Assembly: GCA_030037395.1 (NCBI GenBank)
Contig: JASHRJ010000110.1
Location: 1-48,848, forward strand
Source of the DNA: Thermoplasmata archaeon
GTDB lineage: Archaea; Thermoplasmatota; Thermoplasmata; Lutacidiplasmatales; UBA184
DNA length: 48,848 nucleotides
Direction of reading: 5' to 3'
The notes under the pieces are model-generated. The model worked only from the letters and a program-made list of their open reading frames with translations. It was not told the origin of the DNA and searched no databases. The position numbers were made by a program, and so were the translations under genes. Position 1 is the first letter of the stretch. Each line of letters begins with the position of its first letter. Shown here piece after piece: positions 13,946 through 39,631 of the stretch.

Positions 13946-14923
13946 TCAAAAGGGCTTTGCGCCGGCGGGCCCGCTGGGCGCCTTCGGCACCGCCGTCCGC
14001 TCGAGCGCGGTCCGCACGATCGCCTCCCCCCGGACCCCGCGGATCCACGGCTCCGGCTTCACGACGATGCGGTGCGCGAGCGCGGGCTCGGCGAACGCCT
14101 TCACGTCGTCCGGCACGACGAAGTCCCTCCCGCCGAGGAGGGCCCGGGCGCGCGCGAGCTTCTGGAGGGCGAGCGAGCCCCGCGGCGAGGCCCCGACCTC
14201 GGCTCGGGCGTCGTCCCGCGTGGCCCGAACGAGGTCGACGATGTAGCCGGCGACCGACGGATCGAGCTCCACGCGCTCCACCGCCAGCTGGAGCCCTCGG
14301 AACGTCGCGAGGTCGGTGACCGCCGGGGCGTCGACCCGGTCGTCAGTCCGCGCGCGGCGCCGGGCCAGGATCGTCCGCTCCTCGCCCGGGTCCGGGTAGC
14401 CGACCTTCAGCCGGAGCAGGAACCGGTCGACCTGGGCCTCGGGGAGCGGGTACGTCCCCTCCAGCTCGAGCGGGTTCTCGGTCGCCAGGACCAGGAACGG
14501 CCGAGGCAGCGCGTAGGTCGTCCGCTCGCTCGTCACCTGGTACTCCTGCATCGCCTCGAGCAGCGCCGACTGGACCTTCGGCGGCGCGCGGTTGATCTCG
14601 TCCGCGAGCAGGACGTTCGTGAACAGCGGCCCCGGGCGGAAGGTGAACCCGCCCTTGCTCCCGTCGAGGACCTCCCCGCCGGTGATGTCGTGCGGCAGGA
14701 GATCGGCCGTGAACTGGATGCGCTGGAACGCGAGACCGAGGGCGAGGGCGAACGAGCGCGCCATCAAGGTCTTGCCGAGCCCGGGGAGGTCCTCGATCAG
14801 GAGGTGGCCGTCGGCGACGAGCCCCGTCAGGATCATGTCGACCGGCCCGCCCCGGCCGACGACCGCCGTCCGCACCGACTGCCGGATCTTCTCGGCGAGC
14901 GCGGAGGCGTCCGTCGGGCTCAT
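13946..14923 (-). CDS. moxR: MoxR family AAA+ ATPase
   Basis: GHLLIEDLPGLGKT, RIQFTADLLP, LADEINRAPPKVQSALLEAMQE, EGTYPLPEAQVDRF. Confidence 0.96.
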   Translation of the reverse strand: MSPTDASALAEKIRQSVRTAVVGRGGPVDMILTGLVADGHLLIEDLPGLGKTLMARSFALALGLAFQRIQFTADLLPHDITGGEVLDGSKGGFTFRPGPLFTNVLLADEINRAPPKVQSALLEAMQEYQVTSERTTYALPRPFLVLATENPLELEGTYPLPEAQVDRFLLRLKVGYPDPGEERTILARRRARTDDRVDAPAVTDLATFRGLQLAVERVELDPSVAGYIVDLVRATRDDARAEVGASPRGSLALQKLARARALLGGRDFVVPDDVKAFAEPALAHRIVVKPEPWIRGVRGEAIVRTALERTAVPKAPSGPAGAKPF

Positions 14924-14980
14924 GCGGCTCCCCTCGCGGGCCCCGGACGCCGGCGGCTCATAAGGCGGCCGGCCCCCGGG

Positions 14981-15140
14981 GGGTATGCCCCGGCCGTAAC
15001 GAGCCGCGTCACCGTAGGCCGCTGCCCTCTCGGCGGTCTGACCCCGGCCGGGGTATCGGACGCCGGGGTTGTCCTCGCGTCAGTCTCGGCGGACGACCCG
15101 TCCGCATGGAGTCGGGAGGGACCCTTCGACGGCATCCGGG
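14981..15140 (-). ncRNA. Two-hairpin box H/ACA-like pseudouridylation guide RNA
   Basis: Two hairpins, each with a 9-bp basal stem, an internal pocket, a K-turn (CCGA ... NNUGACGC) and a 3' AUA box (15056-15054 and 14986-14984). Pockets are complementary to conserved 23S rRNA H92 and H69 sequences. Confidence 0.75.
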
Positions 15141-15182
15141 CCGCGGCCGCAGCCGCGCCGACCCGGCTAGGCGCCGGCGGAC

Positions 15183-15704
15183 CTAAGCGCTTCGGGGGGC
15201 GGCGACTCCCCCCTCCTCGTGGGCAAGTCGGACCGCGACCAGGAGCAGCGCGACCGCCACGAGACCGCCGGCGACCCCGACCCCGAGGTTCTGGGTCGGT
15301 ACCGCGAGCGCGATCGTCCCGGCGAGCGCGACCCCGACCCCGGCGGAGGCGACCGTCGGCAGGGCCCTCCGTCCTCCCCCCCGGGGCCGGGCCGGATCGT
15401 CGGCGAGCCACACCAGGAAGACGAGCCCGGCAAGACCGGCGAGCAGCTCGGAGGAAGGTGCCGGAGGGGCTGCCGCCGTGAGCGCCGCGAGCGCGACCAG
15501 CGCCGGGAGGGCGGTAACGGCGCCCGGCCTCCCGCCGCTCGCGCCCCGCCAAACGGAGGCGACGAGCACGCCGGCGACCCCCAGCGCCGGTCCTACGAGC
15601 ACGGGCAGCCCGCTGAGGAGGCCGAGGACCGCGGCCACGGCGGCGAACAGCCCGACGGTCGCCGCGCCGCCCCCCTTCGGTTCGTCCGCGGTCGGCTCGC
15701 TCAC
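15183..15704 (-). CDS. Hypothetical membrane protein of the MoxR/DUF58 cluster
   Basis: Hydrophobic multi-TM ORF; GTGA overlap with the DUF58 gene. Confidence 0.75.
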   Translation of the reverse strand: MSEPTADEPKGGGAATVGLFAAVAAVLGLLSGLPVLVGPALGVAGVLVASVWRGASGGRPGAVTALPALVALAALTAAAPPAPSSELLAGLAGLVFLVWLADDPARPRGGGRRALPTVASAGVGVALAGTIALAVPTQNLGVGVAGGLVAVALLLVAVRLAHEEGGVAAPRSA

Positions 15705-16993
15705 GCGGTCCTCCGACGTGCCGGCTGGCGCAGGAACCGGACGAGCCCGTCAAGCGACCAGTAGTCGTCCCAGTCGATCACCGGGCCGTACCTCCATAGC
15801 TCGGCGAGGCGCACCTGGCGCTCTAGGAGCAGCAGGCGACGCTCTAGGGCTAGGTCCGGATTCGCGGGACCGCGAGCCGGTACCCTCAGGGGGAGGTCCG
15901 ATGGACTGAGGAGGATCACCGGGAAGCCGCGCCGCCGGACGTACGGGACGAGGTCCGAGGCCGGGTCGCCGGTCCAGGAGGAGACCACGAGCGCCGTCAC
16001 CCCGGGCCGGTAGTACCGGCCGAGGCCGTTGGCGCACCGGGCCGCCGGGCCGGCGACCTCGGCCCGGCGGCTCGCGAGCACCGCCCGGAGGAGGCGGAGG
16101 CGGTGGGCACGGCCCGAGGCGATCGGGACCGGCTCGACGAACTCGCCGAACGACGCGAAGCCGATCCGCACCTTGCCGCGCAGGAACGACTCCGCGATGC
16201 CGTAGATCGCCGCCCGCGCGACCTCGAGGAGCTGCTCGTCCAGCTCCGGGCCCGCCGAGGTCGGACGGACGTCCAGGACGATGAGCAGATCCCCGGTCCG
16301 GTCCAGCAGGAAGTCGTTCGCCAGCAGGCGTCCGACCCGGGCGCTCGCCCTCCAGTTGATCCGGCGCGGCGGCTCGTCCGGGGCCGCCTCCCGGATCCCG
16401 AAGAACTCCCCGCTCGGCCCGAGCCGCCGGGAGCGCGTCTCCCCCGGCAGGAGGATCGTCTGGTCGAGGCGCACCGCCCCGACCCGGCGGAGCTCGGCAG
16501 GGTACCGCTCGATCACGAGCTCCGGGCGATCGCCGTCGAGCTCCCGCTCGCAGACGCCGATCGGATCCCTCCACACCACCGGCGGGGCGGCGATCGTGGT
16601 CACCGACGGCCGGGGAACGGTCCACGCCGCGGAGAACCTCAGCCCGCCGGCGTCACGGAGACAGCGGACCGGACGGCGCTCCCCGGCGCCGAACGGAGGG
16701 GCGAGCGGAACCACGAGGTCGGCGACCGCCTCCCCGAGCTCCCCCCGCACCTCGCCGGCGACCTCCAGCTCCGGGCCGAGCCCTCCGGCGTGCCAGGTGA
16801 GGTCGGCCCGAGCCCCGGTCCCCGGGCCGGTCGCGGCCGCGGCGAACGGGGCGATCAACAGCGGCAGCGCCAGGAACAGCGGTGCCGGGGATCGCAGGGC
16901 GACCGCCAGCGCGGCGAGGACCGCGCCTCCCCCGAGCAGGAGGAGCGCCCGCGACGTCCATCGCGAGGGCGACGGCGGAGCCGCGCCGCTCAT
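15701..16993 (-). CDS. DUF58 domain protein (VWA-like MoxR partner)
   Basis: GEFFGIREAAPDEPPRRINWRASAR, LLIVLDVRPT; N-terminal TM pair. Confidence 0.9.
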   Translation of the reverse strand: MSGAAPPSPSRWTSRALLLLGGGAVLAALAVALRSPAPLFLALPLLIAPFAAAATGPGTGARADLTWHAGGLGPELEVAGEVRGELGEAVADLVVPLAPPFGAGERRPVRCLRDAGGLRFSAAWTVPRPSVTTIAAPPVVWRDPIGVCERELDGDRPELVIERYPAELRRVGAVRLDQTILLPGETRSRRLGPSGEFFGIREAAPDEPPRRINWRASARVGRLLANDFLLDRTGDLLIVLDVRPTSAGPELDEQLLEVARAAIYGIAESFLRGKVRIGFASFGEFVEPVPIASGRAHRLRLLRAVLASRRAEVAGPAARCANGLGRYYRPGVTALVVSSWTGDPASDLVPYVRRRGFPVILLSPSDLPLRVPARGPANPDLALERRLLLLERQVRLAELWRYGPVIDWDDYWSLDGLVRFLRQPARRRTA

Positions 16994-39523: not shown

Positions 39524-39631
39524 CCCGGCTTAGCTCAGTGGTAGAGCGGGGGACTGTAGGCGAGTCTGCCGGAACCTCCGGCGGCCCCCGTGGAGATCCT
39601 CAGGTCGCCTGTTCGAGTCAGGCAGCCGGGA
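39524..39631 (+). tRNA. tRNA-Tyr(GTA) with a 36-nt intron at 37/38 (39560-39595)
   Basis: CCCGGCT/AGCCGGG acceptor with C1-G72 and A73; GGGGA-CTGTAG[intron]A-TCCTC; GTTCGAGTC; TTTATA at 39493. Confidence 0.94.

What the first reader, a model, noticed from the sequence alone, without database searches (positions are those of the whole stretch)
14981..15140. Hidden two-hairpin box H/ACA guide RNA inside the MoxR cluster, with predicted 23S rRNA targets
Seen in sequence: the 259-bp gap between otherwise overlapping MoxR-cluster genes folds on the minus strand into two hairpins of the same design. HP1 has stem CGGAUGCCG/CGGCGUCCG (15138-15130/15065-15057), a K-turn CCGA...GAG-ACU-GA-CG, then AUA. 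HP2 has stem CCCCGGCCG/CGGCCGGGG (15053-15045/14996-14988), a K-turn CCGC-C-GA...GGU-GA-C-GCGG, then C-AUA. Established: archaeal H/ACA units are basal stem + pocket + L7Ae K-turn + ANA box, with the target U about 14-16 nt from the box. Inference: HP2 guides GGGUCA (15044-15039) and GUUA (15000-14997) read UAAC-UN-UGACCC, the archaeal 23S helix 69 loop. That places U1915 (E. coli numbering) 14 nt from AUA. HP1 guides AAGGGU (15126-15121) and ACAACCC (15072-15066) read GGGUUGU-UC-RCCC, the helix 92 A-loop, targeting U2554 or U2555 at 15-16 nt. The rRNA sequences are recalled consensus, not this genome's. Both boxes being AUA, both K-turns carrying a C-C pair, and the lack of a clear own TATA (possible processing from an mRNA) are unusual.
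Basis: partly seen in the sequence, partly recalled or inferred. Interest (0 to 1): 0.88.

Follow-up and report, generated by a model that had tools for sequence, protein, structure and literature searches.

The report
Two-hairpin archaeal H/ACA pseudouridine guide RNA
The gap before the MoxR gene encodes a real small guide RNA that most likely directs pseudouridine formation at two functional sites of the large ribosomal RNA; it is a shortened, unannotated relative of a guide RNA family already known from other archaea.

Summary
On the minus strand, 15138-14984 folds into two hairpins, each with a 9-bp basal stem, pocket, GA/GA K-turn and AUA box. Folding energy is not special (z 0.23). The evidence is conservation. 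A covariance model finds one full-length copy in 145 of 151 genomes of the order, 118 of 151 of the class and 84 of 151 of the phylum. 30 of 40 pairs show compensatory changes, while the pocket strands stay constant. Cbf5, Nop10 and L7Ae are encoded; Gar1 was not found.

It is not a new kind. Homologues in other Thermoplasmata orders carry a third 5' motif and match Rfam HgcG/Pab40 (RF00064) end to end, one above its cut-off. The window RNA is a two-motif derivative (motifs 2 and 3).

HP2 matches helix 69 exactly (UAAC-UA-UGACCC, E. coli U1915) in 12 of 12 relatives' 23S. HP1 fits the A-loop best (U2554/U2555). Its orthologue in Haloferax guides U2586, so this target is less certain.

A TATA-like box suggests an own promoter. 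The own 23S is unassembled and no RNA data exist. Verdict: new member of a known kind.

The parts
15181..15190 (-). TATA/BRE-like element (GCGCTTAGGT) overlapping the TAG stop of the upstream ORF. It is the putative promoter of the sRNA.
   Evidence: A motif of the type AAC..TTTAGG / ..CATAG is conserved at the same distance in same-genus loci, and family f2 has TATATAA / CTAAATA there. It resembles the boxes about 25 nt upstream of the window's 5S rRNA and one tRNA gene. Its function is inferred, not shown.
15142..15157 (-). Short G+C-rich 5' hairpin (6 bp plus tetraloop) just upstream of HP1. It is the likely 5' end of the transcript.
   Evidence: It folds at -15.5 kcal/mol. A hairpin of different sequence lies at the same place in 17 of the 18 other-genus family f1 loci shown and in the same-genus loci. 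It is absent in family f2. Other orders have a full H/ACA motif there.
15054..15138 (-). HP1 = H/ACA motif homologous to Pab40/Pf7 motif 2. Basal stem 15138-15130 / 15065-15057. 5' pocket 15129-15120 (UCGAAGGGUC). Upper stem 15119-15116 / 15076-15073. K-turn GA 15113-15112 and GA 15081-15080 with bulge ACU 15084-15082. 3' pocket 15072-15066 (ACAACCC). AUA box 15056-15054.
   Evidence: CAACC(C/A) is present in 61 of 61 homologues and GGGUC in 52 or more of 61. It aligns to motif 2 of RF00064 in homologues.
14984..15053 (-). HP2 = H/ACA motif homologous to Pab40/Pf7 motif 3 and Haloferax sR-h45 SL2. Basal stem 15053-15045 / 14996-14988. 5' pocket 15044-15037 (GGGUCAGA). Upper stem 15036-15033 / 15007-15004. 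K-turn GA 15031-15030 and GA 15010-15009 with bulge GGU 15013-15011. 3' pocket 15003-14997 (CUCGUUA). C, then AUA box 14986-14984.
   Evidence: Rfam HgcG positions 201-267 match at 25.1 bits, E 6.5e-5. The pocket is exactly complementary to helix 69 of relatives' 23S.
14959..14964 (-). TATA-like CTTATG about 26 nt upstream of a plausible MoxR transcription start. It is not part of the sRNA and marks its downstream limit.
   Evidence: Read. CTTATA-like motifs lie at the same place in relatives. Inferred.
13946..14923 (-). Downstream neighbour: MoxR-type AAA+ ATPase gene (context only).
   Evidence: Pfam AAA_3 1.6e-59 and AAA_lid_2 4.1e-23.
15183..15704 (-). Upstream neighbour: 173-aa hydrophobic ORF with no Pfam family, preceded by a DUF58 gene at 15701-16993 (context only).

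Best explanation
Window 15159-14984 (minus strand, about 176 nt) is the gene of a box H/ACA guide sRNA with two guide hairpins.

Inferred: it is transcribed from its own weak TATA-like promoter.

Inferred from architecture, and well established for the family: each hairpin binds L7Ae at its K-turn and Cbf5-Nop10 (with or without Gar1) at the basal stem and ANA box. Its pocket pairs with 23S rRNA on both sides of a uridine, which Cbf5 converts to pseudouridine.

HP2 pairs GUUA and GGGUCA with UAAC-UA-UGACCC of helix 69. This puts E. coli U1915 14 nt from the AUA box, as do its homologues Pab40 motif 3 and Haloferax sR-h45 SL2.

HP1 pairs (A)CAACCC and GGGU with GGGUUG(U)-U(U)C-GCCC of the helix 92 A-loop. 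This puts U2554 or U2555 15-16 nt from its AUA box.

Evolutionarily, the RNA is the Thermoplasmata version of the three-motif Pf7/Pab40/Afu-4 (Rfam HgcG) RNA. In this order it has lost motif 1 and keeps a short 5' hairpin instead. Its place inside the MoxR cluster is incidental.

My odds: genuine H/ACA guide RNA 0.93; HP2 guides U1915 0.8; HP1 guides the A-loop rather than, or besides, U2586 0.6.
For: Structure and covariation:
- Both hairpins have a 9-bp stem, pocket, GA/GA K-turn and ANA box.
- 30 of 40 pairs show two-sided changes and 94.2% of cells pair, against 35-46% for slid partners. On plain MAFFT, 13 pairs change on both sides and 95.4% pair.

Constant pockets, varying stems:
- 3' strand CAACC(C/A) in 61 of 61.
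- Box 1 is ANA in 60 of 61.
- HP2 5' strand GGGUCA(G/A) in 45 of 61.

Distribution: one full-length model hit per genome in 145 of 151 (order), 118 of 151 (class) and 84 of 151 (phylum) genomes.

Protein partners in the own genome: Cbf5 at 265.7 bits, over its cut-off; Nop10 at 67.2 bits; L7Ae at 100 bits.

Homology to a known guide RNA:
- HP2 hits RF00064 motif 3.
- 13 of 15 homologous loci from other families hit RF00064 over positions 1-276 at E 2.9e-9 or better. One scores 92.7 bits, above the cut-off of 77.

Targets:
- UAAC-UA-UGACCC is exact in 12 of 12 relatives' 23S (6 of the same genus).
- GGGUUGU-UC-GCCC is present in 12 of 12.
- E. coli numbering was fixed against a real rrl gene.
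- These are the top-ranked sites among all U of a same-genus 23S, 16S and the window's 5S. They also outrank every U of the 28 tRNAs of the own genome.

A-loop against U2586, in 9 genomes with both sRNA and 23S:
- The A-loop is invariant in 9 of 9.
- The U2586 site varies in its 3' flank (GACC, CACC, CAAC) without any change in the guide.
- E. coli position 2586 is C in 2 of 9.
- Duplex energies are -15.5 kcal/mol for the A-loop and -9.9 for U2586.

Literature:
- Pab40 motif 3 forms the pseudouridine equivalent to E. coli 1915 in vitro (PMC2377435 Table 1 and section 26; PMC2584109 passages).
- sR-h45 SL2 guides the 1915 and 1917 equivalents in vivo (PMC7075261 abstract and passages).
Against: - No expression data exist: no RNA run holds the stretch. 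The transcript, its ends and the promoter are inferred.
- The window's own 23S is not assembled, so target matches rest on relatives.
- Complementarity alone is weak. Shuffled pocket strands reach the observed score somewhere in the rRNAs in 45 of 500 trials (HP1) and 94 of 500 (HP2).
- The rRNA targets are invariant, so guide-target covariation cannot be tested.
- The fold energy is not better than shuffles.
- Gar1 was not found in the own genome, which is 84% complete. It is only weakly detectable, below the cut-off, in 9 of 25 same-genus genomes.
- The window copy itself scores far below Rfam's cut-off (25.1 against 77 bits).
- HP1's orthologue in Haloferax guides the U2586 equivalent. Muller et al. 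rejected an A-loop-equivalent proposal for Afu-4 motif 2 (PMC2377435 section 27).
- With U2555 as target, the spacing to the box is 16 nt, outside the 14-15 nt found in Pyrococcus (PMC2377435 abstract).
- In one genus (g21) both HP1 and HP2 pockets carry changes that weaken the pairing although the 23S targets are unchanged.
Confidence: 0.8

Rival explanations
1. The RNA is a genuine H/ACA guide, but HP1 guides the E. coli U2586 equivalent (GGGUU-U-A, peptidyl transferase centre), like its orthologues, and not the A-loop. The A-loop match would be a by-product of the shared GGGUU.
For: HP1 aligns to motif 2 of RF00064. The haloarchaeal homologue of that motif (sR-h45 SL1) makes the U2586-equivalent pseudouridine in vivo (PMC7075261; PMC2584109 passages). 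Muller et al. argue for the same site for Afu-4 and Pf7 motif 2 (PMC2377435 section 27). AACCC pairs with GGGUU (5 bp), giving the ideal 14-nt spacing to the box. In a lineage whose 23S reads GGGUUUAGACC (G030), GGUC would add 4 canonical pairs.
Against: In the window's genus the site reads GGGUUUACACC. That gives only 5 + 3 pairs with three unpaired target bases, and -9.9 against -15.5 kcal/mol for the A-loop. The 3' flank of the site varies among 9 genomes with no matching change in the guide, and 2 of 9 have C at position 2586 yet keep HP1. C at guide position 70 is invariant in 61 of 61 homologues; it pairs only in the A-loop duplex.
Confidence: 0.2
2. The hairpins are a cis-acting structure of the MoxR operon (leader, attenuator, terminator of the upstream gene or processing signal), not a trans-acting guide RNA.
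For: The element lies between co-oriented genes of one cluster. No transcript data exist. The DUF58-element-MoxR order is kept in several genera of the family.
Against: The same RNA occurs once per genome across the class and phylum, in loci without MoxR or DUF58 neighbours. It has pocket, K-turn and ANA architecture, matches a known H/ACA family, and is flanked by promoter-like boxes on both sides.
Confidence: 0.03
3. It is a decaying or inactive relic of the three-motif RNA in this order. It would be transcribed or not, but no longer guiding modification (motif 1 lost, Gar1 not detected, non-canonical AUA boxes).
For: Motif 1 is missing. Gar1 was not found in the own genome and is weak in the genus. 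The score against RF00064 is low.
Against: Pocket strands, K-turn GAs and boxes are kept while stems change by compensatory substitutions across 145 of 151 genomes of the order. That is the signature of purifying selection on a working guide. AUA is a functional box in Haloferax sR-h45, and Gar1 is reported to reinforce rather than enable activity (PMC7075261, PMC2377435 passages).
Confidence: 0.04

Closest known systems
Pf7 / Pab40 / Afu-4 H/ACA sRNA of Thermococcales and Archaeoglobus (Rfam RF00064, HgcG)
   Same: The motifs are adjacent, each with basal stem, pocket, K-turn or K-loop and ANA. The last motif has the pocket GGGU.A / GUUA(C) for helix 69 (E. coli U1915). The middle motif has GGUCCC and AACCC. 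Homologues of the window RNA align to the model end to end, and HP2 aligns to model positions 201-267.
   Different: The window RNA has two motifs, not three; motif 1 is replaced by a 16-nt hairpin. It scores 25.1 bits against a cut-off of 77. Its middle-motif 3' strand is extended to CAACCC, which fits the A-loop rather than U2586. Its G+C content is 73%.
[quoted passage not shown]
   Same: It has two stem-loops. The 3' one guides helix 69. The 5' one is the homologue of Pf7 motif 2 (PMC2584109) and also ends in AUA. L7Ae K-turns are present. The RNA is about 200 nt.
   Different: sR-h45 has a 56-nt linker between the stem-loops, while here the spacer is 0-4 nt. Its SL2 holds UNUN unpaired and makes two pseudouridines at 17 and 19 nt from the box, while here U1917 can pair with the guide and U1915 lies at 14 nt. 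Its SL1 guides the U2586 equivalent.
Eukaryotic A-loop pseudouridylation guide (yeast snR10 for 25S psi2923, recalled and not checked in any call)
   Same: If HP1 acts on U2554, it would make the same A-loop pseudouridine with the same type of RNP.
   Different: No sequence relationship was tested. The eukaryotic guide has H and ACA boxes and no K-turn.

Membership tests
Archaeal box H/ACA guide sRNA | Basal stem of about 9 bp followed directly, or after 1-2 nt, by an ANA trinucleotide | tested here: met
   Both hairpins have 9 bp and then AUA. The stems covary: 7 of 9 pairs in each show two-sided changes. Box 1 is ANA in 60 of 61 homologues.
Archaeal box H/ACA guide sRNA | Internal pocket whose two strands pair with rRNA on either side of an unpaired U-N | tested here: met
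   HP2 gives 4 + 6 bp around U1915-A1916. HP1 gives 7 + 4 bp around U2555-C2556, or 6 + 4 around U2554. These were tested on relatives' 23S. Caveats: the own 23S is not assembled, and shuffled guides reach these scores in 45 and 94 of 500 trials.
Archaeal box H/ACA guide sRNA | K-turn or K-loop (tandem sheared G.A) in the upper stem, 5-6 bp above the pocket, bound by L7Ae | tested here: met
   The sequence pattern GA ... 3-nt bulge-GA is present in both hairpins, after 5 (HP2) and 6 (HP1) stacked positions. The 3' UGA is near-invariant, and the 5' GA is kept in 42 of 61 (HP1) and 57 of 61 (HP2) homologues. L7Ae is encoded. Binding is not testable here.
Archaeal box H/ACA guide sRNA | Target U 14-15 nt from the ANA box (PMC2377435 abstract; up to 17 tolerated in PMC7075261) | tested here: met
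   HP2: 14 nt for U1915. HP1: 15 nt for U2554, 16 nt for U2555, 14 nt for the rival U2586. Counted.
Archaeal box H/ACA guide sRNA | Genome encodes Cbf5, Nop10, L7Ae and Gar1 | tested here: inconclusive
   Cbf5, Nop10 and L7Ae are over their cut-offs. Gar1 was not found in the 84%-complete genome. Weak sub-cut-off matches occur in 9 of 25 same-genus genomes.
Archaeal box H/ACA guide sRNA | Expressed as a stable small RNA; pseudouridine present at the guided sites | not testable with these tools
   No RNA run holds the stretch. No modification data exist.
Rfam RF00064 HgcG (Pab40/Pf7) | Score at or above the curated gathering cut-off (77 bits) | tested here: not met
   Nothing in the window reached the gathering cut-off. 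Only a local 25.1-bit match of HP2 was found. Of 15 homologous loci from other families, 1 scores 92.7 bits, 12 score 45-68 bits full length, 1 scores 23.7 bits and 1 (L086) gives no match. I therefore call it a homologue of this lineage, not a member by Rfam's own rule.
Rfam RF00064 HgcG (Pab40/Pf7) | Three consecutive H/ACA motifs | tested here: not met
   The window has two motifs plus a 16-nt hairpin. Homologues in other orders have the third, 5' motif.
Haloferax sR-h45 type | Two stem-loops separated by a long (56-nt) linker; SL2 holds UNUN unpaired | tested here: not met
   HP2 starts directly after the AUA of HP1, and the spacer is 0-4 nt in homologues. The guide's A can pair with U1917.

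The most novel reading that the evidence does not exclude
In Thermoplasmatota the middle motif of the ancient Pf7/Afu-4/sR-h45 guide RNA has been re-aimed. A one- to two-base extension of its 3' pocket strand (AACCC to CAACCC) would move it from the peptidyl-transferase U2586 to the A-loop U2554/U2555; both sites begin with GGGUU. That would give archaea an RNA-guided A-loop pseudouridine like the one eukaryotes make. Lineages whose 23S has C at position 2586 would keep the hairpin for that reason.
Probability: 0.45. Interest if true: 0.55.

Novelty: new member of a known kind. Interest (0 to 1): 0.4.

Why it matters
- It adds an H/ACA guide RNA to a large, mostly uncultured archaeal phylum. 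My paper searches found none described for Thermoplasma in the library. Rfam's curated cut-off found nothing at this stretch of the window.
- It shows that the Pf7/Pab40/Afu-4/sR-h45 RNA is an old, widely inherited gene whose number of motifs changes between orders.
- It predicts two concrete modifications that can be tested in any cultured Thermoplasmata carrying the RNA: pseudouridine at E. coli U1915, and at U2554/U2555.
- The A-loop prediction bears on an old disagreement about the target of motif 2 (PMC2377435 section 27).
- The covariance model built here could extend RF00064.
- It has no bearing on MoxR function.

Tried and rejected
- **Folding energy as evidence:** rejected. The z-score is 0.23.
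- **Rfam at gathering cut-offs:** found only 5S and tRNAs in the window.
- **Own 23S rRNA:** not in the assembly, so targets were tested on relatives.
- **Sequencing runs:** no RNA holder is listed. All 19 runs are DNA from peat, soil or wetland metagenomes. Read laying was not used, because DNA contigs cannot show a transcript.
- **Guide-target covariation:**
  - Helix 69 and the A-loop are identical in all 23S examined, so the test is impossible for them.
  - Genus g21 has changed pocket bases with unchanged targets.
- **tRNA targets:** the best scores, 8.0 and 8.5, lie below the rRNA sites.
- **Protein-coding reading of the 277-aa ORF 14920-15753:** rejected. Relatives differ by 1- and 2-nt indels inside the element.
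- **Functional link to MoxR:** rejected, because synteny holds only within family f1.
- **Gar1:** a candidate ORF from a same-genus genome finds nothing in the own genome.
- **Paper searches:**
  - Afu-4 gave 0 papers.
  - Thermoplasma with box H ACA terms gave 0 papers.
  - A second Thermoplasma search gave 7 papers, none on such an RNA as far as listings and one set of passages show.
- **Not seen:** Tang 2002 and Rozhdestvensky 2003 were not read; I know them only through Muller's text. Supplements are closed, so Figure S1 of PMC2377435 and Additional file 8 of PMC2584109 could not be seen. These draw the motif 2 pairings and may bear on the HP1 target.
- **Unpublished genomes:**
  - G031, G070 and G080 are counted in the tallies.
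  - G031's locus L037 was displayed.

Full report
**The observation**

It holds two hairpins, each with a 9-bp basal stem. Each has an internal loop, an upper stem interrupted by GA ... NNN-GA, and an AUA directly (HP1) or one base (HP2) after the stem.

The gap lies between a 173-aa hydrophobic ORF (stop at 15183) and a MoxR AAA+ gene (ATG at 14923). A DUF58 gene lies further upstream.

RNAfold finds both hairpins, but the energy equals that of shuffled sequence (z 0.23). In DNA of 73% G+C such hairpins come cheaply, so the fold alone proves nothing.

**Conservation and covariation**

- blastn of the 171-nt stretch finds one strong match (80-93% identity) in 33 of 36 same-genus genomes. The match ends at the borders of the two hairpins. 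Split matches to the pocket regions occur in a second family.
- On a plain MAFFT alignment of 36 sequences (one unpublished genome left out), the structure I wrote from the window sequence is 95.4% paired. With partners slid by 1-3 columns it is 35-47% paired. 13 pairs change on both sides.
- A covariance model from this alignment finds exactly one full-length hit in 145 of 151 genomes of the order (10 of 10 genera). It finds the same in 118 of 151 of the class and 84 of 151 of the phylum. Two families are poor in hits: f20 with 0 of 12 and f8 with 6 of 16.
- On the model-fitted alignment of 61 sequences, 30 of 40 pairs change on both sides (269 cells), and 0 of 500 shuffles reach this. This alignment leans to the structure, so the MAFFT result is the cleaner control.
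- The pocket strands, the K-turn GAs and the boxes stay while stems are rewritten.
- Columns dominated by G.U show that the RNA is on the minus strand.
- Indels of 1-2 nt exclude a coding reading.
- Record titles from a pattern scan name the carriers Thermoplasmata MAGs. One is titled Candidatus Lutacidiplasmatales and one UBA184.

**What it is**

The own genome is a MAG of 1.58 Mb, 84% complete. It encodes Cbf5, Nop10 and L7Ae above their curated cut-offs. Gar1 was not found and is only weakly detectable in the genus.

A permissive Rfam scan of the gap matches HP2 to positions 201-267 of RF00064 (HgcG = Pab40), the third motif of that RNA (25.1 bits, E 6.5e-5).

The decisive result came from homologues in other orders. 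Upstream of their HP1 lies a further H/ACA motif with a K-loop. 13 of the 15 loci scanned (14 of 15 at E 0.01) match RF00064 from position 1 to 276. One scores 92.7 bits, above the cut-off of 77, and twelve score 45-68 bits. In these alignments HP1 falls on motif 2 (shared GGUCCC and AACCC) and HP2 on motif 3.

The window RNA is therefore the local form of the Pf7/Pab40/Afu-4 RNA with motif 1 lost. Across family f1 a short G+C hairpin of variable sequence stands in its place.

The haloarchaeal sR-h45, whose two stem-loops were called homologues of Pf7 stems II and III (PMC2584109, passages), is a parallel two-motif form. It has a long linker (PMC7075261, passages).

**Promoter**

About 25 nt upstream of the 5' hairpin lies CTTAGG (15187-15182), overlapping the upstream stop codon.

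- Same-genus loci have TTTAGG or CATAG preceded by AAC at the same place, and family f2 has TATATAA or CTAAATA.
- The window's 5S rRNA gene and one tRNA gene carry TAAATAGG and TTTATAGG at similar distances.
- A CTTATG box follows the RNA, ahead of MoxR.

An own promoter is thus plausible, but it is inferred. The conservation could owe something to the stop codon.

**Targets**

The own 23S is missing. In 12 of 12 23S genes of relatives (6 of the same genus), helix 69 reads UAAC-UA-UGACCC. That is exactly complementary to GUUA and GGGUCA of HP2. Helix 92 reads GGGUUGU-UC-GCCC, which pairs with ACAACCC (7 bp) and GGGU (4 bp, one G.U) of HP1.

Alignment to a real E. coli rrl gene fixes the unpaired uridines as U1915 and U2555.

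In a scan of every U of a same-genus 23S and 16S and the window's 5S, these sites rank first for their hairpins (10.5 and 10.0; runners-up 9.0 and 8.5). No tRNA of the own genome does better.

The caveat is that shuffled pocket strands find an equally good site somewhere in 45 of 500 (HP1) and 94 of 500 (HP2) trials. Complementarity is only supporting evidence.

For HP2 the assignment rests mainly on homology. Pab40 motif 3 forms the U1915-equivalent pseudouridine in vitro, and sR-h45 SL2 forms the 1915 and 1917 equivalents in vivo (PMC2377435 Table 1 and section 26; PMC2584109; PMC7075261). The spacing is 14 nt, within the 14-15 nt rule (PMC2377435 abstract).

**HP1: A-loop or U2586?**

The orthologous motif guides the U2586 equivalent in Haloferax. 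Muller et al. prefer that site for Afu-4 and Pf7 as well. They reject an earlier proposal at A. fulgidus 2601 = P. abyssi 2647 (PMC2377435 section 27).

P. abyssi 2678 equals H. marismortui 2621, which equals E. coli 2586 (same section; PMC2584109). This offset is my inference.

Both sites start with GGGUU. Several results here favour the A-loop.

- Guide position 70 is C in 61 of 61 homologues. It pairs only with G2553 of the A-loop.
- In the window's genus the U2586 site offers 5 + 3 pairs with three unpaired bases. The duplex energies are -9.9 kcal/mol for U2586 and -15.5 for the A-loop.
- Among 9 genomes with both genes, the A-loop is invariant. The U2586 flank reads GACC, CACC or CAAC with no change in the guide, and two genomes have C at position 2586 yet keep HP1.
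- Position 69 varies (A, U, C). This suggests that U2554 is the unpaired target (15 nt, a U-N-N arrangement that Muller et al. found active), rather than U2555 (16 nt).

I put the A-loop at about 0.6, U2586 at about 0.2, and the rest on both or neither.

**Verdict**

The element is a real, strongly conserved H/ACA guide RNA gene. It is not a new kind of system. It is an unannotated, two-motif member of an old archaeal guide RNA lineage that falls below Rfam's cut-off.

Its position in the MoxR cluster is incidental, since that synteny holds only in family f1.

The points of interest are its phylum-wide distribution, the loss of a motif, and a testable, possibly re-aimed A-loop guide. Expression and modification remain unshown.

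Noticed in passing
window 15142-15157 (-); same place in L011-L043 and L081-L100: A short G+C-rich tetraloop hairpin sits directly 5' of HP1. Its sequence differs between genera of family f1 but the pairing is kept. It stands where other orders have H/ACA motif 1. Its role is unknown (5' end protection, or a remnant of motif 1).
   Followed up: partly
L113 1387-1500, L116 1655-1767 (-), L127 1650-1756 (-) and similar: In other Thermoplasmata orders and classes the same sRNA has a third, 5' H/ACA motif with a K-loop and its own ACA box, giving a full-length match to Rfam HgcG. Its rRNA target was not examined.
   Followed up: partly
L257 (G062) and L279 (G022), 23S rRNA, E. coli position 2586: Two of nine Thermoplasmata 23S genes read GGGUUC instead of GGGUUU. 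They therefore lack the uridine that is pseudouridylated in haloarchaea at this peptidyl-transferase-centre position.
   Followed up: partly
L008 (G021:C8:28069-31091), 23S rRNA just 3' of helix 69: This 23S gene is about 115 nt longer than its relatives. It diverges right after UGACCCUCUUAA (CCCUUUUUC instead of GGUAGCG), which looks like an insertion or intron next to helix 69.
   Followed up: no
window 39524-39631 (+): A tRNA match spans 108 nt against a 71-position model, which suggests an intron-containing tRNA gene.
   Followed up: no
own genome G000 and 25 same-genus genomes: Gar1 is not detectable in the own genome. In 9 of 25 same-genus genomes it appears only as weak matches below the cut-off (20-27 bits), although Cbf5, Nop10 and L7Ae are clear in the own genome. 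Either Gar1 is very diverged or it is dispensable in this lineage.
   Followed up: partly
L081, L084, L085 (genus g21): In this genus both pockets carry changes (UGGU for GGGU in HP1; AGGUCA and GUUUA in HP2) although the 23S targets of G062 are unchanged. The guides may work with weaker pairing, or they may be drifting.
   Followed up: partly
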